Below, piece by piece: positions 1 to 58,761 of a stretch of DNA of 64,000 nucleotides. The translations under genes were made by a program, and so were the position numbers. The stretch lies in assembly GCF_041248615.1 (NCBI RefSeq), contig NZ_CP158426.1; one strand, 5' to 3'. The notes below the pieces were generated by a model. The model was not told the DNA's origin and did no database searches. It saw only the letters and a list, made by a program, of their open reading frames with translations. The DNA comes from Escherichia coli (GTDB lineage: Bacteria; Pseudomonadota; Gammaproteobacteria; Enterobacterales; Enterobacteriaceae). The first letter of the stretch is position 1; the number at the start of each line of letters is the position of its first letter.

Positions 1-381
1 AAAAACTATCGCGTTAAATTTGAAGCGGTTCCCAGTATTGATGACGCTGCCACGGATAAAAAAGATCTCTCTATGCAGTTAACCGTTAATTTAATTTGGG
101 GGATTGTTGTTAGTGTTCCACCTCAGCAACCCATTGCCAGGTTAGAAGTAAACCCTGCCAAAAAATTATTAAATGCTGGGAATCAGCGTTTGAAAATTTT
201 AACGATCGCTTATTGTAAAAATAATAGCAAAGATAATTGTAAGATACAGACCGTAAATAAAAACATCTTCCCTGGTCAGGAAAGAAATCTGGAAAGTATA
301 TCTGGCTACGACAAAATCGTTGTCAAATATAATAACTGGATCACCAAAGATAATGGCGAGTTTGAACTGGCGGTCCATTAA
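1..381 (+). CDS. partial CDS (5' end outside window): C-terminal part of a putative fimbrial chaperone of a class 5 pilus operon
   Basis: Frame 1 is open from base 1 to the stop at 379-381; sits directly upstream of and co-directional with pilin, usher and adhesin genes. Chaperone role is inferred from operon position only. Confidence 0.35.
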   Translation, partial: KNYRVKFEAVPSIDDAATDKKDLSMQLTVNLIWGIVVSVPPQQPIARLEVNPAKKLLNAGNQRLKILTIAYCKNNSKDNCKIQTVNKNIFPGQERNLESISGYDKIVVKYNNWITKDNGEFELAVH

Positions 382-410
382 TTATCATTGTAATAAACGA
401 AGGAATAGTA

Positions 411-911
411 ATGAAAAAGGTATTTGCAAAATCTCTTCTGGTTGCCGCGATGTTGTCTGTTGCTGGCTCTGCGTTAGCAGTACAAAAAGATATCACTGTA
501 ACGGCTAACGTTGATGCCGCTCTGGATATGACACAGACCGATAACACCGCACTGCCAAAAGCAGTCGAAATGCAATATCTGCCGGGTCAGGGTCTGCAAT
601 CTTACCAGTTAATGACCAAAATCTGGTCTAACGATGTTACCAAAGATGTAAAAATGCAGTTAGTTTCCCCGGCGCAACTGGTTCAAAGCCTGGATGCTAC
701 CAAGATTGTTCCGCTGACAATAACCTGGGGTGGCGAAGAAATTAAAGCTGATGCGGCAACCACGTTTACCGCAACCAAAATCTTTGCTTCCGATGCGTTA
801 ACTAACGGTTCTCTGGCTAAAAATCTGATGTTTGCGCAAACCACCAAAGGTGTTCTGGAAACAGGTATCTACCGTGGCGTAGTAAGCATTTATCTGTCCC
901 AGGATATCTAA
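411..911 (+). CDS. fimbrial major subunit (pilin), class 5 / CFA-I CS1-like
   Basis: 166 aa; N-terminal signal peptide ending ALA-VQKDITVTANVD resembles the mature N-terminus of CfaB/CooA-type pilins; AAGGA ribosome-binding site upstream; first full gene of a pilin-usher-adhesin set. Confidence 0.6.
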   Translation: MKKVFAKSLLVAAMLSVAGSALAVQKDITVTANVDAALDMTQTDNTALPKAVEMQYLPGQGLQSYQLMTKIWSNDVTKDVKMQLVSPAQLVQSLDATKIVPLTITWGGEEIKADAATTFTATKIFASDALTNGSLAKNLMFAQTTKGVLETGIYRGVVSIYLSQDI

Positions 912-1001
912 TCCGGATAACAGAATTAACACGTAACAAAGGGGGGCTAGTCCTCCCTTATTTTAATTGTTTTAGTATTTGTTATGGATTTCAGGGTTGC
1001 C

Positions 1002-3686
1002 ATGGATAAAAAATTACTGGCTCTTTTGATCCTGGCGAGTCTCAGCCCGGCAAAGGCGACATTAACCAAAATTCCCGCTGGGTTTGAGGTTATTGCTCAG
1101 GGACAGCAGGAGTATATCGAGGTTTATTTCGCAGGGAAAAGTCTCGGTAAATATTATGCAATGGTTAATCTTGACACCGTAACATTTCTTGATTCAACAA
1201 GTTTATATAGCAAGCTGGAACTGGATGCGGACGACCAGAAAATATCGCGTATAGTAAAAGAAAAATTATCGCAACCGTTAGCCCGCCACGGCGAATTAGC
1301 ATGTGGTTTTGTTCGTACTGACTCAGGGTGTGGCTTTCTTAATACCGATACAGTGGAAATAATTTTCAACGATGAAGAGAGTTCGGCAACGTTATTTCTT
1401 AATCCGCAATGGAGTTCTGCTTTCGACGCGAAGTCATTATATTTAAATCCGGACAAAAATACGGTTAATGCCTTTATACATCAGCAAGACATCAATGTCC
1501 TGGCACAAGATGATTACCAGTCGTTGTCTGTTCAGGGTAACGGTGCGCTGGGAATAACAGAAAATAGCTATATTGGCGCACATTGGAATTTCAATGGTTA
1601 TGATGCAGATGATGTCAGTGACAGTAATGCTGATGTCAGCGATCTCTATTATCGTTATGATTTTTTACGTCGTTATTATGTGCAGGCGGGGCGCATGGAC
1701 AACCGCACGCTATTTAATGCACAAGGCGGGAACTTTACCTTTAACTTTCTGCCACTCGGTGCAATCGATGGGATGCGTATCGGGTCGACACTTAGCTATT
1801 TAAACCAGGCGCAAAGCCAGCAAGGGACGCCAGTAATGGTCCTGCTTTCGCGTAATTCTCGCGTTGACGCTTATCGTAATGAACAGCTACTGGGATCGTT
1901 TTATCTCAATAGTGGTTCGCAATTTATTGATACCAGTTCCTTTCCGCCAGGCAGCTACAGCGTGGCATTAAAAGTCTACGAAAATAACCAACTTACCCGC
2001 ACCGAGCTTGTGCCGTTTACCAAAACAGGCGGTCTGACAGATGGAAATGTGCAATGGTTTTTACAGGCAGGTAAAACCACATCACAGGTTTCTGATGATG
2101 AAAGCTCAGCTTATCAACTAGGGGTACGCCTGCCACTACACCCGCAATATGAGCTCTATGCAGGCCTGGCGAATGCCGATGATGTGAATTCATTCGAACT
2201 CGGTAATAACTGGACGTCGAGTTTAGGCGGGGCGGGGAATCTTGCTATAAGCGCCAGCCTGTTCCGTAATGATGACGGCGGCAAAGGTGATATGCAGCAG
2301 GCAAACTGGAGCAATCCGGGATGGCCGACGTTGGGCTTTTATCGGACCAACTCTGACGGCGATGCTTGTACAACCGACAGCAGAGAGAGCTACAACGCCT
2401 TAAGCTGTTATGAAAGCATTTCCGCGACGGTTTCACAGAATCTTGTTGGCTGGAATATGATGTTGGGTTATACCCGCACACAAAATAACACCGATGATAG
2501 TCTGCGTTGGGATAAACAGCAGAGCTTTGAAAATAACTATCTTCGCCAGACAACAGCGCAAAGTATCTCTGAAACTGTACAACTTAGTGCTTCCCGCGCT
2601 TTTGTGATGCGTGACTGGATTTTGAGTACTTCTGTTGGTGTTTTCCATCGTAATGACAACGGTGGTGATAATGACGACAACGGCTTGTACTTGTCGTTTT
2701 CGTTATCTGACACGCCAACGATGGACAGCAATAACAACAGCCATTCAACCAATGTTTCTACGGATTATCGTTATAGCGATCAGGATGGTGATCAAACGTC
2801 ATGGCAGTTATCGCATACCTTTTATAACGATTCATTCAGCCATAAAGAGCTTGGCGTAACCGTCGGTGGTCTGAACACAGATACCATAAACAGCGCGGTT
2901 AACGGGCGTTGGGATGGTCAGTACGGAAATGTCTACGCTACCGTGTCTGACAGTTATGATCGTAAGAATCATGATCATCTCTCGGCCTTTACAGGTACTT
3001 ACAGCTCCACGCTGGCAGTCAGTCGCTATGGCGTTAATTTGGGGGCCAGCGGTACAGAAGATTTGCTGGGGGCGGTGTTGGTAGATGTGAAAGGATTCTC
3101 TGAACAGGATGAGGAGAGTCAGGATCTGCAACTCGAAGCGCGGGTAGCAGGCAGCAGAACATTGCAACTTGGTCAAAGCGACAGTGTGTTGTTCCCTTAT
3201 CCTGGATTTCAGTCTGGTTTTGTTGAGGTCAACGACAGTAGCCAGGGCAACCAGCAAGGCACAACAAACATCATTAACGGTGCAGGGAATCGTGAATTAA
3301 TGTTGTTGCCTGGCAAGCTGCGCTATCGCGAAGTGTCAGCCAGCTTTAATTACAACTATATCGGTCGCTTGTTATTGCCAGCATCGGTAGAGAAATTCCC
3401 GCTGGTTGGTCTGAACAGCGCCATGTTACTGGTCGCTGAAGATGGCGGATTTACACTTGAAATTAACGGTAGCGAAAAAGAGCTATATCTCCTGTCGGGG
3501 CAGCAATTCCTTAAGTGTCCGCTTAGTGTTGTGAAGAAACGCGCCAGCATTCGTTACAGCGGGGATGTGAATTGTAGTGTCGTGAGTTATTCGCAATTAC
3601 CGGAGTCCATTCAGGTTCAGGCGCAGTTAAAACAGCCTAAATTACGTGGAAACGTTCAGACGGCGCAAAGGGAGGTTGCACCATGA
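1002..3686 (+). CDS. fimbrial outer-membrane usher (CfaC/CooC-like)
   Basis: About 895 aa with signal peptide (MDKKLLALLILASLSPAKA); size and position match class 5 ushers. Start moved to the ATG at 1002 (AGGG 5 nt upstream) rather than the ORF-track ATG at 984. Confidence 0.6.
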   Translation: MDKKLLALLILASLSPAKATLTKIPAGFEVIAQGQQEYIEVYFAGKSLGKYYAMVNLDTVTFLDSTSLYSKLELDADDQKISRIVKEKLSQPLARHGELACGFVRTDSGCGFLNTDTVEIIFNDEESSATLFLNPQWSSAFDAKSLYLNPDKNTVNAFIHQQDINVLAQDDYQSLSVQGNGALGITENSYIGAHWNFNGYDADDVSDSNADVSDLYYRYDFLRRYYVQAGRMDNRTLFNAQGGNFTFNFLPLGAIDGMRIGSTLSYLNQAQSQQGTPVMVLLSRNSRVDAYRNEQLLGSFYLNSGSQFIDTSSFPPGSYSVALKVYENNQLTRTELVPFTKTGGLTDGNVQWFLQAGKTTSQVSDDESSAYQLGVRLPLHPQYELYAGLANADDVNSFELGNNWTSSLGGAGNLAISASLFRNDDGGKGDMQQANWSNPGWPTLGFYRTNSDGDACTTDSRESYNALSCYESISATVSQNLVGWNMMLGYTRTQNNTDDSLRWDKQQSFENNYLRQTTAQSISETVQLSASRAFVMRDWILSTSVGVFHRNDNGGDNDDNGLYLSFSLSDTPTMDSNNNSHSTNVSTDYRYSDQDGDQTSWQLSHTFYNDSFSHKELGVTVGGLNTDTINSAVNGRWDGQYGNVYATVSDSYDRKNHDHLSAFTGTYSSTLAVSRYGVNLGASGTEDLLGAVLVDVKGFSEQDEESQDLQLEARVAGSRTLQLGQSDSVLFPYPGFQSGFVEVNDSSQGNQQGTTNIINGAGNRELMLLPGKLRYREVSASFNYNYIGRLLLPASVEKFPLVGLNSAMLLVAEDGGFTLEINGSEKELYLLSGQQFLKCPLSVVKKRASIRYSGDVNCSVVSYSQLPESIQVQAQLKQPKLRGNVQTAQREVAP

Positions 3687-4762
3687 GAAATCGATTGATT
3701 GCCGTGATTTTATGTCTATTTGGCATGGTTGCAGGTGTTCAGGCAGCGCCCAATGTAACAGCTGAAATTACTTATGATTTGGCTGTAGGTAGGGCGGATT
3801 ATTACTTCTGGAATAGAGAAGATCCACCCGGAGTAAATACGTATATGTGGTATCAATGCGCTTATAACAATTTACAGCAGACATGTACTAACTCTGGCAA
3901 TGTAACGACAGTACAAATTTATATGACAGAGCAACGAAGCGGGATGCGTTGGCCAGTCAAGCTTAAGGGATATCAAACGGTTTTAACTTCAGCTTCTGGC
4001 TCTGGTAATTGTACTGGGTATAACAGACAACGCCCCTTAAATGACAGTGGCGGACGTTCTTGTCAGGATGAAACTGGTTGGCATGATGCCAACAGGAAAC
4101 AGCTCACACTCTACATCGAACAGGCGGAAATGAAAAAGTTGCCAATTGGTGGCGTGTGGAAAGGGTCGGTATTCTTACATTTAAATAGCCCATCACAGGA
4201 CTATACCGCAGATATCACCCTGAACACTCTCGATCCGAACCATATCGATGTGTTCTTCCCGGAGTTCGCCCACGCTACGCCACGAGTGCAGTTAGACTTG
4301 CATCCAACAGGAAGCGTTAACGGCAGCAACTACGCGCAAGATCTGACCATGTTGGACATGTGTCTGTACGATGGCTTTAACGGTAATGCTATCAGTTATG
4401 AAATCATGCTCAAAGATGAAGGACGACCCGCCGCAGGGCGCAGAGACGGTTACTTCTCTATCTATCGTCAGGGAGGAACCACCACTGACGAGGGAGAACG
4501 CATTGATTACCGTGTCAAAATGTACAACCCGGAAACCGGTGGGCAAATTGATGTGCGCAATAATGAAAATATGGTCTGGACCAGCATTAATCTGAAACGT
4601 GTGCGTCCGGTCGTGTTGCCAGGCATTCGTTACGCTGTGATGTGTGTACCTACACCTTTGACTCTGGCAGTCGATAAATTCAGCGTGATGGACAAACAGG
4701 CGGGATATTATATGGGTAAATTGTCGGTCATCTTTACCCCGTCATTGCCGACAATCAATTGA
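3683..4762 (+). CDS. fimbrial minor subunit / tip adhesin (CfaE/CooD-like)
   Basis: 359 aa with signal peptide; start overlaps usher stop by 4 bp (ATGA), indicating translational coupling; size matches class 5 tip adhesins (about 360 aa). Confidence 0.5.
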   Translation: MRNRLIAVILCLFGMVAGVQAAPNVTAEITYDLAVGRADYYFWNREDPPGVNTYMWYQCAYNNLQQTCTNSGNVTTVQIYMTEQRSGMRWPVKLKGYQTVLTSASGSGNCTGYNRQRPLNDSGGRSCQDETGWHDANRKQLTLYIEQAEMKKLPIGGVWKGSVFLHLNSPSQDYTADITLNTLDPNHIDVFFPEFAHATPRVQLDLHPTGSVNGSNYAQDLTMLDMCLYDGFNGNAISYEIMLKDEGRPAAGRRDGYFSIYRQGGTTTDEGERIDYRVKMYNPETGGQIDVRNNENMVWTSINLKRVRPVVLPGIRYAVMCVPTPLTLAVDKFSVMDKQAGYYMGKLSVIFTPSLPTIN

Positions 4763-4786
4763 CCTCGCAGACCAGAAAAAACCAAA

Positions 4787-4818
4787 CAACGAAGCCGCCT
4801 GAACAGGCGGCTTCGTCA
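4787..4818. terminator. hairpin terminator between convergent fimbrial adhesin gene and exuT
   Basis: Inverted repeat ACGAAGCCGCCTG-AACA-GGCGGCTTCGT with an A-run on the plus strand (T-run on the minus strand, so best fitted as the exuT terminator). Confidence 0.6.
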
Positions 4819-4837
4819 TTACAACTTACGTTAAGCG

Positions 4838-6136
4838 TTAATGTTGCGGTGCGGGATCGTTATGTGTTTCCTGCGCCACCTCAATCGCTGGTTTGTTCTG
4901 CAACACGGTCCAGATAACCAGCGCACCCAGCAGGTCAAATACTGCCAGAACTGCGAACAGCGGGCTGAAGCCGATGGTGTCAGCCAGTGCACCGACAACC
5001 AGCGCAAACAGCGTACTTGCCAGCCATGCGGACATCCCGGTTAAACCGTTTGCCGTTGCCACTTCGTTACGACCAAACACGTCAGAAGAGAGCGTAATCA
5101 GCGCGCCAGACAGTGCCTGGTGAGCAAAACCACCGATACACAGCAGCATAATCGCGACATACGGGTTGGTGAACAGACCGATCATACCCGGGCCAATCAT
5201 CAGCACAGCACCCAGCGTTACGACCATCTTACGGGAAACGATCAGGTTCACACCAAACCAACGCTGGAACAGCGGCGGCAGGTAACCACCGAGGATACAA
5301 CCGAGGTCAGCAAACAGCATCGGCATCCAGGCAAACATCGCGATCTCTTTCAGGTTAAAGCCGTAAACTTTAAACATGAACAGCGGGATCCACGCGTTAA
5401 AAGTACCCCATGCCGGTTCTGCCAGGAAGCGCGGCAGCGCGATACCCCAGAACTGACGGTTACGCAGGATCTGACCAACGGACATTTTCTTCGCTGTGTC
5501 AACCTGGTGCTGGGCTTCCTGACCATTAATAATGTAGTCGCGTTCTTCATCGGTCAGATGCTTCTGGTCGCGCGGATGTTTATAGAAAATCAGCCATGCC
5601 ATCGCCCAGATAAAGCTCAATGCACCGGAGATGATAAATGCCATCTGCCAGCTGTGCATTACGATTGCCCATACCACCAGCGGCGGTGCAATCATCGCAC
5701 CAATCGAAGAACCTACGTTAAAGTAACCTACCGCGATGGAACGCTCTTTCGCCGGGAACCATTCGGAGCTGGCTTTCAGACCCGCCGGGATCATCGCTGC
5801 TTCCGCGGCACCGACCGCACCACGAGCAACAGCCAGGCCGCCCCAGCTACCTGCCAGCGCGGTTGCACCACAGAACACGGCCCACAGCACAGCAAACATT
5901 GCATAACCGATTTTCGTACCCAGCACATCCAGTACATAACCTGCTACCGGTTGCATGACCGTATAAGCAGCAGAATAGGCTGCGATGATATAGGAATACT
6001 GTTGGGTGGAGATGTTTAACTCTTCCATCAGAGTTGGCGCAGCTGCCGCCACAGTGTTACGCGTCAGGTAACCAAGCACGGTGCCGAGCGTCACCAGTGC
6101 GATCATATACCAACGTAACCCTTTAATTTTACGCAT
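4838..6136 (-). CDS. exuT: hexuronate transporter (MFS)
   Basis: ORF-track protein matches ExuT throughout; start trimmed to MRKIKGLRWYM (ATG at 6134-6136) for the 432-aa K-12-type product. The 472-aa upstream ATG at 6256 is an alternative. Confidence 0.9.
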   Translation of the reverse strand: MRKIKGLRWYMIALVTLGTVLGYLTRNTVAAAAPTLMEELNISTQQYSYIIAAYSAAYTVMQPVAGYVLDVLGTKIGYAMFAVLWAVFCGATALAGSWGGLAVARGAVGAAEAAMIPAGLKASSEWFPAKERSIAVGYFNVGSSIGAMIAPPLVVWAIVMHSWQMAFIISGALSFIWAMAWLIFYKHPRDQKHLTDEERDYIINGQEAQHQVDTAKKMSVGQILRNRQFWGIALPRFLAEPAWGTFNAWIPLFMFKVYGFNLKEIAMFAWMPMLFADLGCILGGYLPPLFQRWFGVNLIVSRKMVVTLGAVLMIGPGMIGLFTNPYVAIMLLCIGGFAHQALSGALITLSSDVFGRNEVATANGLTGMSAWLASTLFALVVGALADTIGFSPLFAVLAVFDLLGALVIWTVLQNKPAIEVAQETHNDPAPQH

Positions 6137-8031
<1,895 letters not shown>

Positions 8032-55271: not shown

Positions 55272-55598
55272 ATGACTAAAAATACTCGTTTTTCCCCCGA
55301 AGTCCGTCAGAGGGCGATTCGTATGGTTCTGGAAAGTCAGGGCGAATATGACTCACAGTGGGCGGCAATTTGTTCCATTGCCCCAAAGATTGGCTGTACA
55401 CCGGAGACTCTGCGTGTCTGGGTGCGCCAGCATGAGCGGGATACCGGAGGCGGTGATGGCGGGCTCACCACCGCTGAACGTCAGCGTCTGAAAGAGCTGG
55501 AACGTGAAAATCGTGAACTGCGCCGCAGTAACGATATCCTTCGCCAGGCTTCCGCTTATTTTGCGAAGGTGGAGTTCGACCGCCTCTGGAAAAAGTGA
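55272..55598 (+). CDS. IS3-family transposase OrfA (IS629/IS1203-like)
   Basis: 108 aa, [51 protein letters not shown]; HTH plus leucine zipper. Confidence 0.85.
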
Positions 55599-56012
55599 TG
55601 CCACTGCTGGATAAGCTGCGTAAGCTGTACGGGGTCGGACCGGTATGCAGTGAACTACATATTGCCCCGTCAACGTATTACCACTGTCAGCAACAGCGAC
55701 ATCATCCTGATAAACGCAGTGCCCGTGCGCAGCGCGATGACTGGCTGAAGAAAGAGATACTGCGCGTATACGATGGGAATCATCAGGTATACGGTGTGCG
55801 TAAAGTCTGGCGTCAGTTGTTACGGGAAGGAATCAGGGTAGCCAGATGTACAGTGGCGCGCCTCATGGCGGTTATGGGACTTGCCGGTGTTCTCCGGGGT
55901 AAAAAGGTCCGCACTACCGTCAGCCGGAAAGCCGTTGCCGCAGGCGACCGCGTAAACCGTCAGTTTGTGGCAGAACGTCCTGACCAGTTGTGGGTGGCTG
56001 ATTTTACTTACG
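55595..56012 (+). CDS. IS3-family transposase OrfB, 5' exon (interrupted by group II intron)
   Basis: Frame runs to …[10 protein letters not shown] then meets GTGTG at 56013; the ORF-track continuation [15 protein letters not shown] is intron read-through. Confidence 0.65.

Positions 56013-58761
<2,749 letters not shown>

What the first reader, a model, noticed from the sequence alone, without database searches (positions are those of the whole stretch)
1..4837. Class 5 (CFA/I-CS1-like) chaperone-usher fimbrial operon abutting exuT, where K-12 has exuR
Pilin (166 aa), usher (about 895 aa) and tip-adhesin-sized (359 aa) genes, preceded by a partial upstream gene, form a compact translationally coupled operon that converges on exuT across a single hairpin terminator. 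In K-12 the gene directly downstream of exuT is the repressor exuR, which is not present within 4.8 kb here. So this locus carries an accessory adhesin operon inserted between or replacing the exuT-exuR linkage. If exuR is lost, hexuronate genes would be derepressed. The pilin N-terminus resembles the class 5 pili best known from enterotoxigenic strains.
Basis: partly seen in the sequence, partly recalled or inferred. Interest (0 to 1): 0.5.

Follow-up and report, generated by a model that had tools for sequence, protein, structure and literature searches.

The report
Known E. coli CS1-like (eaf) fimbrial operon
This is the already described chromosomal "CS1-like"/eafABCD pilus operon that about a third of E. 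coli strains carry between the hexuronate genes exuR and exuT; the repressor exuR is not lost, so the locus is ordinary apart from an unusually variable adhesin tip.

Summary
Window 1-4762 (+) encodes the 3' end of a chaperone, a 166-aa pilin, an 894-aa usher and a 359-aa tip adhesin. They converge on exuT (4838-6136, -) across one hairpin. All four proteins are class 5 (alpha, CFA/I-CS1 type) by Pfam, by solved CfaA/CfaB/CfaE structures, and by an AlphaFold model of the adhesin matching CfaE (TM 0.73).

The "exuR lost" idea is wrong. The window simply starts inside the operon. In the 100%-identical source genome, intact exuR lies 632 nt left of window base 1, divergent from the chaperone gene. 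The operon sits between exuR's promoter and exuT's terminator, which K-12 also has.

The locus is not new. It is the "CS1-like" operon of strain SE11 (2008), named eafABCD in E. coli W (2011). It occurs in 1,916 of 5,426 complete E. coli genomes and at the same site in E. albertii. It shares only 29-39% identity with CFA/I, has no linked regulator or mobility genes, and lacks the adherence-critical Arg181.

One feature deserves a note: the adhesin's N-terminal receptor-binding domain is hypervariable (median 60% identity versus 93% for its C-terminal domain). This window's variant occurs in only 5 genomes. Interest is low.

The parts
1..381 (+). eafA, 3' part (last 126 codons) of the CfaA-type periplasmic chaperone. 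The full gene is 238 aa and starts 336 nt left of the window.
   Evidence: ORF frame and stop. Full gene in identical genomes. 38% identical to CfaA over the full length. PDB 4ncd CfaA E=5.6e-36. Pfam PapD_N.
411..911 (+). eafB, major pilin (166 aa) with a CFA/I-like N-terminal donor strand (VQKDITVTANVDAALD).
   Evidence: Pfam Fimbrial_CS1 E=1.8e-22. CfaB, CS17 and CS1 structures hit. 39% identical to CfaB.
939..959 (+). Intercistronic GC-rich hairpin followed by a T-run between pilin and usher. Inferred to be a partial terminator or attenuator that sets the pilin-to-usher ratio.
   Evidence: Terminator-like site (L001 9939-9959). The hairpin is kept in all six alleles despite sequence changes. 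Its function is inferred, not shown.
1002..3686 (+). eafC, outer-membrane usher (894 aa) of the TcfC/CooC/CfaC type.
   Evidence: Pfam Usher_TcfC 4.4e-58, TcfC 2e-20, CooC_C 1.3e-4. 29% identical to CfaC over 96% of its length. Published 'CS1-like' PCR primers hit 2364-2382 and 3099-3118, giving the published 755-bp amplicon.
3683..4762 (+). eafD, two-domain CfaE/CblD-family tip adhesin and assembly initiator (359 aa). Its start overlaps the usher stop (ATGA).
   Evidence: Pfam CblD 7.9e-99. CfaE 2hb0 E=1.3e-27. 30% identical to CfaE. AlphaFold model pLDDT 85, pTM 0.78, with CfaE as best PDB match at TM 0.73 over both domains.
3749..4228 (+). Hypervariable N-terminal (receptor-binding) domain of eafD. 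This window's variant is rare.
   Evidence: 56-74% aa identity among six alleles, versus 85-99% for the C-terminal domain. Median 60% versus 93% among 17 Escherichia 90%-identity clusters, with an entropy peak at residues 95-140. Only 5 of 1,906 matching genomes are >=99% identical to this 480-nt segment.
4785..4820 (-). exuT intrinsic terminator hairpin (16-bp stem, T-run on the minus strand). It also serves as the only stem-loop at the end of the eaf operon.
   Evidence: L001 13820-13785. Conserved with the K-12 exuT-exuR intergenic hairpin.
4838..6136 (-). exuT hexuronate transporter (432 aa), a core gene that marks the right flank of the operon.
   Evidence: PGAP annotation in identical genomes. 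K-12 synteny.

Best explanation
The region is the chromosomal eafABCD ('CS1-like', E. coli alpha-type fimbria) operon, a class 5 alternate chaperone-usher pilus system.

Inferred mechanism, by homology to CFA/I:
- EafA chaperones subunits in the periplasm.
- EafD (tip adhesin/initiator) binds the EafC usher first.
- EafB pilins are then added by donor-strand exchange through their conserved N-terminal strand, giving a helical pilus with a single EafD at the tip.
- A hairpin after eafB probably lowers read-through into eafC-eafD, whose translation is coupled.

The operon is an old, low-GC accessory block of the genus Escherichia. It lies between the exuR promoter and the exuT terminator, and was then differentially lost or kept among lineages. 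K-12 lacks it. exuR, exuT and their operators are untouched, so hexuronate regulation is not expected to change.

Shown here: gene content, family membership, position, distribution and allelic diversity. Inferred: assembly mechanism, attenuator function, promoter (a conserved TTGACT-17-TCTAAT about 70 nt upstream of eafA, outside the window), probable H-NS silencing of the AT-rich leader, and the gain/loss history. Receptor and expression conditions are unknown.
For: - Gene order chaperone-pilin-usher-adhesin, all intact.
- Pfam Fimbrial_CS1, Usher_TcfC/TcfC/CooC_C, CblD and PapD_N.
- Hits to solved CfaA, CfaB and CfaE.
- 38/39/29/30% identity to CfaA/B/C/E over near full length.
- AlphaFold model of EafD matches CfaE at TM 0.73.
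- exuR is adjacent and intact in the source genome and in all carriers checked.
- Junction alignments put the block between about 45 nt upstream of the exuR ATG and the exuT terminator.
- 1,916 of 5,426 complete genomes carry it, always on the chromosome.
- It occupies the same site in E. albertii.
- Purifying selection acts on all genes (dN/dS 0.04-0.14).
- Literature identity: PMC2608844, PMC3032704, and primer/amplicon match.
- Transcripts were reported in non-O157 STEC (PMC6033998).
Against: - No pilus has been visualised and no receptor identified for this locus in any paper found.
- There is no Rns/CfaD-type activator gene in or beside the block. No strong consensus sigma-70 promoter passed the scan in the eafA leader, so it may be silent under laboratory conditions.
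- The Arg181 essential for CfaE/CooD adherence falls in a deletion in EafD, so binding cannot be extrapolated from CFA/I.
- Some genomes carry IS-disrupted or truncated copies.
- Archer et al. 2011 stated that the cluster lacks a tip adhesin. That is contradicted here for this allele, but W's own sequence was not examined.
Confidence: 0.88

Rival explanations
1. The operon replaced exuR, or otherwise uncoupled exuT from exuR, so carriers are derepressed for hexuronate catabolism.
For: exuR is not inside the window. The exuR upstream region beyond about -45 is replaced by operon DNA, so the exuR -35 region differs from K-12.
Against: Intact exuR (258 aa) lies 296 nt upstream of eafA, divergently oriented, in the source genome and in all carriers examined. 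An 18-nt motif shared with the exuT and uxaC operator regions is retained at the exuR promoter. exuT keeps its own terminator.
Confidence: 0.03
2. It is a recently acquired ETEC-type colonisation-factor island, horizontally transferred from a CFA/I or CS plasmid, and it marks a pathogen.
For: Low GC relative to the flanks. Class 5 family membership. Class 5 operons are typically plasmid-borne in ETEC (Wurpel 2013).
Against: Only 29-39% identical to CFA/I proteins and 30% to the CS19 usher. No integrase, IS or repeats at the junctions. Fixed chromosomal site in 1,916 genomes from humans, animals, water and food. Same site in E. albertii. Synonymous divergence between alleles is 0.37 to above 2, which implies an old locus. 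It is present in commensals and laboratory strains SE11, HS, W and ATCC 8739.
Confidence: 0.04
3. The operon is a cryptic, functionally decaying remnant that no longer makes pili in nature.
For: No linked activator. An AT-rich leader typical of H-NS-silenced fimbrial operons. IS insertions and truncated eafD occur in some E. coli and Shigella. Many K-12 chaperone-usher operons are cryptic (cited).
Against: All four ORFs are intact here and in six divergent alleles of conserved lengths. dN/dS is 0.04-0.07 for chaperone, pilin, usher and the adhesin C-terminal domain despite dS of 0.37-0.95, which requires long-term selection for function. Usher and pilin transcripts were detected and differentially expressed in STEC.
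Confidence: 0.12

Closest known systems
eafABCD / 'CS1-like' fimbrial operon of E. coli (SE11 ECSE_3375-3378, Oshima 2008; E. coli W, Archer 2011; Wurpel 2013 typing)
   Same: Same chromosomal site (exuR | operon | exuT). Same four-gene order. Same alpha/class 5 type. The published CS1-like primers give the expected 755-bp product in the window's usher.
   Different: This window carries a rare allele. The operon is about 91.6% (nt) identical to the common type, and its adhesin N-terminal domain is only 58-71% (aa) identical to the other alleles compared. Archer et al. said there is no tip adhesin, but EafD here is clearly CfaE-like.
CFA/I (cfaABCE) and CS1 (cooBACD) pili of enterotoxigenic E. 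coli: class 5 fimbriae, alternate chaperone-usher pathway
   Same: Gene order, Pfam families, the pilin N-terminal donor strand, the two-domain adhesin fold, and the chaperone fold.
   Different: 29-39% identity only. Chromosomal rather than plasmid-borne. No IS flanks. No known Rns/CfaD dependence. The KRRY segment containing Arg181/Arg182 of CfaE is deleted in EafD. It is found mostly in commensal or B1-type strains.
Tcf (tcfABCD) of Salmonella Typhi and cable pili (cblBACD) of Burkholderia cenocepacia
   Same: These are the best-scoring NCBIfam models for all four proteins, with the same alpha-clade architecture.
   Different: All scores are far below the equivalog cut-offs: TcfC 552 versus 1428, TcfD 106 versus 589, TcfB 94 versus 384, CblA 114 versus 225. 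The proteins are relatives, not orthologues.
Related four-gene operons in Klebsiella, Enterobacter, Kluyvera and Salmonella (CfaE/CblD family adhesins, 40-46% identical to EafD)
   Same: Same gene order and Pfam content.
   Different: Different chromosomal site in Klebsiella, beside a decarboxylase gene plus LysR-family regulator on one side and an Asp/Glu racemase gene on the other. Much lower identity.

Membership tests
Class 5 / alpha-clade (CFA/I-CS1) alternate chaperone-usher fimbriae | Four-gene operon in the order chaperone, major pilin, usher, minor tip subunit | tested here: met
   The chaperone start lies outside the window but is present in the identical source genome.
Class 5 / alpha-clade (CFA/I-CS1) alternate chaperone-usher fimbriae | Major pilin of the CS1/CfaB family with a conserved N-terminal donor strand | tested here: met
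   Pfam Fimbrial_CS1 1.8e-22. VQKDITVTANVDAALD aligns with CfaB VEKNITVTASVDPVID.
Class 5 / alpha-clade (CFA/I-CS1) alternate chaperone-usher fimbriae | Usher of the CfaC/CooC/TcfC type (the alpha clade is defined by usher phylogeny, Nuccio and Baumler) | tested here: met
   Usher_TcfC, TcfC and CooC_C domains. 29% identity to CfaC over 96% of its length. No tree was built here. Alpha typing is also stated in PMC3032704.
Class 5 / alpha-clade (CFA/I-CS1) alternate chaperone-usher fimbriae | Two-domain tip adhesin/initiator of the CfaE/CooD/CblD family | tested here: met
   Pfam CblD 7.9e-99. CfaE E=1.3e-27. AlphaFold model versus 2hb0 gives TM 0.73 across both domains.
Class 5 / alpha-clade (CFA/I-CS1) alternate chaperone-usher fimbriae | CfaA-type chaperone | tested here: met
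   38% identity over 231 aa. PDB 4ncd E=5.6e-36.
ETEC class 5 colonisation factors (functional subgroup) | Conserved Arg181 in the adhesin, essential for adherence (Sakellaris 1999, cited) | tested here: not met
   CfaE K180-R181-R182-Y183 aligns to a gap in EafD in HMMER, BLASTP and MAFFT alignments. No Arg is in that column in any Escherichia allele shown.
ETEC class 5 colonisation factors (functional subgroup) | Plasmid-borne, IS-flanked, and activated by an AraC-family regulator (Rns/CfaD) | tested here: not met
   All 1,920 places are chromosomal. There are no IS or regulator genes within or beside the block. Dependence on an unlinked regulator cannot be tested here.
eafABCD / CS1-like locus of E. 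coli | Located between exuR and exuT | tested here: met
   The exuT side is in the window. The exuR side is in the identical source genome and in 6 further carriers.
eafABCD / CS1-like locus of E. coli | Detected by the published CS1-like usher PCR (755-bp amplicon) | tested here: met
   Primers match at 2364-2382 (1 mismatch) and 3099-3118 (2 mismatches), giving a span of 755 bp.
Salmonella Tcf / Burkholderia Cbl (NCBIfam equivalogs) | Score above the curated equivalog cut-off | tested here: not met
   TcfC 551.7/1428, TcfD 105.6/589, TcfB 93.6/384, CblA 113.9/225.

The most novel reading that the evidence does not exclude
The receptor-binding (N-terminal) domain of EafD may be a recombining, hypervariable cassette held as many ancient allelic lineages across Escherichia, including E. 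albertii, while the rest of the pilus machinery stays conserved. Strains with the same pilin can carry adhesin domains only 58% identical, and this window carries a rare type seen in 5 of about 1,900 carriers. If so, this common commensal class 5 pilus would partition strains among host glycans or niches, or would be under immune- or phage-driven frequency-dependent selection. To my knowledge, that has not been described for this locus.
Probability: 0.3. Interest if true: 0.45.

Novelty: already known. Interest (0 to 1): 0.15.

Why it matters
It matters little as a discovery. The locus is annotated by PGAP, named in the literature, and present in a third of sequenced E. coli. Three things have value.

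- It removes a false lead: exuR is not lost, so no hexuronate derepression is predicted.
- It corrects a published statement that the eaf cluster lacks a tip adhesin. EafD is a bona fide CfaE-like two-domain adhesin.
- It shows that divergence is concentrated in the adhesin's receptor-binding domain, and that the locus is far older (dS 0.4 to above 2) than the surrounding core genome.

Together these make eaf a reasonable candidate for studying niche-specific adhesion in commensal and B1-type E. coli. No functional data exist yet.

Tried and rejected
1. I looked for ExuR control of eaf. An 18-nt motif derived from the exuT, uxaC and exuR promoter regions (AAANTNGTNTGANAANTT) occurs only at those three places in 24.3 kb, with no site of 2 or fewer mismatches near the eaf promoter. 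The test is circular for the three sites and informative only for the absence elsewhere.

2. The sigma-70 scan found no qualifying + strand promoter in the exuR-eafA spacer. By eye, a TTGACT-17 nt-TCTAAT pair is invariant in six otherwise divergent leaders. This is inferred only.

3. There was no PDB sequence relative for the usher.

4. NCBIfam Tcf and Cbl equivalogs all scored below cut-off.

5. Rfam and ARAGORN found nothing in 1-6,600.

6. I searched for remnants of eaf in the K-12 empty site. Only the heptamer CTCGCAG next to the terminator is shared, and there are no direct repeats.

7. The main text of Wurpel 2013 does not contain the term 'CS1-like'. The name is used in its figures according to citing papers.

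8. Not done:
- the genome contigs and metagenome scans (judged unnecessary);
- site-model tests for positive selection;
- inspection of E. coli W's own eafD;
- phylogroup assignment of carriers.

9. Technical: only the first locus fetched per turn reached the Python sandbox, so the sequences were passed in through alignments instead.
Full report
**What is in the sequence**

Window 1-4762 on the + strand holds, in order:
- the last 126 codons of an ORF ending at 381;
- a 166-aa ORF (411-911);
- a long ORF (first ATG at 984, 900 aa; annotated start 1002, 894 aa; stop 3686);
- a 359-aa ORF (3683-4762) whose ATG overlaps the preceding stop as ATGA.

exuT lies on the minus strand at 4838-6136, followed by uxaC and uxaA.

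Only the usher-adhesin pair is strictly translationally coupled. The chaperone-pilin gap is 29 nt. The pilin-usher gap is 90 nt and holds a GC-rich hairpin plus T-run at 939-959, which is preserved in six divergent alleles.

Between the adhesin stop and the exuT stop there is a single 16-bp hairpin (4785-4820), with its T-run on the exuT strand. The same hairpin follows exuT in K-12, so it is exuT's own terminator.

GC content is 0.37-0.50 in the operon against 0.52-0.57 in exuT/uxaCA.

**Source and the missing left side**

The window is 100% identical to E. coli NRZ14408 (NZ_LT599825.1 736001-800000) over the stretches compared, 1-6,300 and 34,600-59,500. In that record the chaperone gene starts 336 nt left of the window. 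An intact exuR (258 aa) lies 296 nt further upstream, divergently oriented, followed by yqiM, yqjA and mzrA as in K-12.

The same arrangement, exuR(-) | chaperone-pilin-usher-adhesin(+) | exuT(-), is found in six further E. coli genomes that carry five further alleles, and in E. albertii.

Junction alignments against K-12 show where homology stops:
- on the exuR side, it runs to about 45 nt upstream of the exuR ATG;
- on the exuT side, it runs through the terminator hairpin to a CTCGCAG heptamer that abuts the adhesin stop codon.

So a block of about 5.4 kb sits inside what is a 129-bp spacer in K-12. An 18-nt motif shared with the exuT and uxaC operator regions is still present at the exuR promoter.

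**Family assignment**

| Protein | Pfam | Solved structures (sequence search) | Identity to CFA/I |
|---|---|---|---|
| Chaperone | PapD_N | CfaA 4ncd, 5.6e-36 | 38% to CfaA |
| Pilin | Fimbrial_CS1, 1.8e-22 | CfaB, CS17 and CS1 pilins | 39% to CfaB |
| Usher | Usher_TcfC 4.4e-58, TcfC 2e-20, CooC_C 1.3e-4 | none | 29% to CfaC |
| Adhesin | CblD, 7.9e-99 | CfaE 2hb0, 1.3e-27 | 30% to CfaE |

Pfam results are, structure hits, and BLASTP identities (all over near full length).

The pilin N-terminus VQKDITVTANVDAALD matches the CfaB donor strand VEKNITVTASVDPVID.

An AlphaFold2 model of the adhesin, built on 53 aligned homologues (pLDDT 85, pTM 0.78), finds CfaE as its best PDB match. That match is E=1.3e-24 and TM 0.73 across both domains, well ahead of FimH-type adhesins.

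They are not orthologues of any named system. All NCBIfam Tcf and Cbl equivalog scores are far below cut-off, and the best ETEC plasmid ushers are only 29-30% identical.

The KRRY segment of CfaE, which contains the adherence-essential Arg181 (Sakellaris et al. 1999, cited), is deleted in EafD in three independent alignments. Receptor specificity therefore cannot be carried over from CFA/I.

**It is already known**

- Oshima et al. 2008 described ECSE_3375-3378 of commensal SE11 as a 'CS1-like fimbrial operon'. They reported it as absent from MG1655 and present in E24377A, HS, ATCC 8739, 536 and SMS-3-5, with 71-100% amino-acid identity (PMC2608844).
- Archer et al. [quoted passage not shown]
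- Later papers, citing Wurpel et al. 2013, treat 'CS1-like' as a B1-associated chaperone-usher type.
- Published CS1-like PCR primers hit the window's usher at 2364-2382 and 3099-3118. That span is exactly the published 755-bp amplicon.
- PGAP annotates all four genes.
- Transcripts of the usher and pilin were reported as higher in HUS-associated non-O157 STEC. PCR positivity was associated with lower rather than upper urinary tract infection.

I found no paper showing pili, a receptor or a mutant phenotype.

Archer et al. stated that the cluster has no tip adhesin and is unlikely to function in colonisation. The Pfam, PDB and fold evidence above contradicts this for the allele studied here. 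I did not examine W's own sequence.

**Distribution and history**

The operon is found in 1,916 of 5,426 complete E. coli genomes (35%), always on the chromosome and nearly always once. Hosts include humans, livestock, pets, wild birds, water and food. Some copies are interrupted by IS1, IS2 or IS3, and truncated 210-aa EafD forms occur in Shigella boydii.

There are no integrase, IS or repeat signatures at the junctions.

Alleles are strikingly divergent for E. coli:
- Only 5 genomes are at least 99% identical to the window's operon, 1,672 are 90-95% identical, and 238 are 80-90% identical.
- Pairwise synonymous divergence among six alleles is 0.37 for pilin and usher, 0.89 for the chaperone, 0.95 for the adhesin C-terminal domain, and saturated for the adhesin N-terminal domain.
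- dN/dS is 0.04-0.07, rising to 0.14 in the N-terminal domain.

Together with the identical site in E. albertii and homologues labelled Escherichia sp. E13S3 and E4742, this points to an old Escherichia locus. The locus has been maintained under purifying selection and lost from some lineages. It does not look like a recent insertion. This history is inference.

Relatives at 40-46% adhesin identity occur in Klebsiella, Enterobacter, Kluyvera and Salmonella, and in Klebsiella they sit at a different site.

**The one unusual feature**

Divergence is concentrated in the N-terminal, receptor-binding domain of EafD.

- Among six alleles this domain is 56-74% identical, while the C-terminal pilin-like domain is 85-99% identical. 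For comparison with the window's allele, the pilin is 94-98%, the usher 95-97% and the chaperone 84-96% identical.
- Two genomes with the same pilin protein and 98.9% identical C-terminal domains have N-terminal domains only 58% identical, which indicates recombination at the domain boundary.
- Across 17 Escherichia clusters (90% identity), median pairwise identity is 60% for the N-terminal domain and 93% for the C-terminal domain. Variability peaks at residues 51-60 and 95-140, and there are 14 N-domain groups at 80% or more.
- The window's N-domain type is found in only 5 of 1,906 matching genomes.

Average dN/dS below 1 with saturated dS means this looks like ancient allelic lineages rather than ongoing positive selection. 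Site-level tests were not run.

**Mechanism**

By homology to CFA/I, and not shown here:
- EafA captures subunits in the periplasm.
- EafD initiates assembly at the EafC usher and ends up at the tip.
- EafB polymerises by donor-strand exchange.
- The hairpin after eafB probably attenuates transcription into eafC and eafD.
- eafD translation is coupled to eafC translation.

A TTGACT-17-TCTAAT pair is invariant in an otherwise variable, very AT-rich leader and is the likely promoter. It did not pass the consensus scan. H-NS silencing and the need for an unlinked activator are plausible but untested. No additional ExuR-type site lies near it.

**Verdict**

The locus is already known and common, so interest is low. 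The domain-restricted hypervariability of the adhesin is the only aspect that might repay further work.

Noticed in passing
window 34754-64000: Core synteny with strain 362 ends inside the 3' 47 nt of tRNA-Ile (ileX), and no intact tRNA is found in the window. From there a tyrosine-integrase-led genomic island begins. It carries a raffinose/sucrose-type cluster (LacI-like regulator, alpha-galactosidase, MFS transporter, GH32 hydrolase, IIA-Glc-like protein, kinase, carbohydrate porin), IS remnants, and then L-lactate permease, dld and lut-type genes. At least 80% of window 34600-59500, which is mostly island, is present in 122 complete genomes.
   Followed up: partly
window 55553-55669 and 58196-58282: Rfam finds an ALIL pseudoknot (IS3 transposase frameshift element) and a group II intron domain. 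The record annotates a group II intron reverse transcriptase (ltrA) inserted within a broken IS3 copy.
   Followed up: no
window 6368-6385 (-) and 6548-6565 (+); also L001 8398-8415 (exuR promoter, outside the window): Three copies of an 18-nt motif, AAANTNGTNTGANAANTT, sit at the exuT, uxaC and exuR promoter regions and are presumably ExuR/UxuR operators. In eaf carriers the exuR copy (AAAGTGGTATGATAACTT) resembles the uxaC site more closely than the K-12 exuR copy does (AAAGTGGTATAACAAATA), because the junction of the block lies just upstream.
   Followed up: partly
L002 (K-12) 6524-6652, the empty site: At the place where carriers have the operon, K-12 has a short inverted repeat, TGCGAG-N10-CTCGCA. 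Carriers keep only the right arm, CTCGCAG, directly after the eafD stop. No target duplication was seen.
   Followed up: no
plasmid record NZ_MG591698.1 198536-201160: A 353-kb E. coli record filed as a plasmid carries an eaf usher 96.8% identical to the window's, plus the adhesin gene. A second plasmid record is also 95-99% identical. Every match in the complete-genome collection was chromosomal. These may be misassigned replicons or chromosome-derived segments.
   Followed up: no
eaf loci in other genomes (for example NZ_CM192120.1, NZ_CM129884.1, NZ_CP025869.1; Shigella boydii proteins P0021): IS1, IS3 and IS2 insertions interrupt the usher or adhesin in several E. coli. Truncated 210-aa EafD proteins, labelled Shigella boydii, are seen on 42 contigs, which shows lineage-specific decay of the locus.
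   Followed up: no
NZ_OW967178.1 714296-719270 (strain 362; not in the window): In the island-free strain with the same eaf allele, a second chaperone-usher operon (pilus protein, chaperone, usher, fimbrial-like protein) lies just beyond ribB. It appears to be the Yqi-like type and sits at a different position from K-12 ygiL-yqiGHI.
   Followed up: no
window 4838-6256: The longest exuT ORF (472 aa, ATG at 6256) extends 40 codons upstream of the annotated 432-aa start at 6136. The extension is probably not translated.
   Followed up: no
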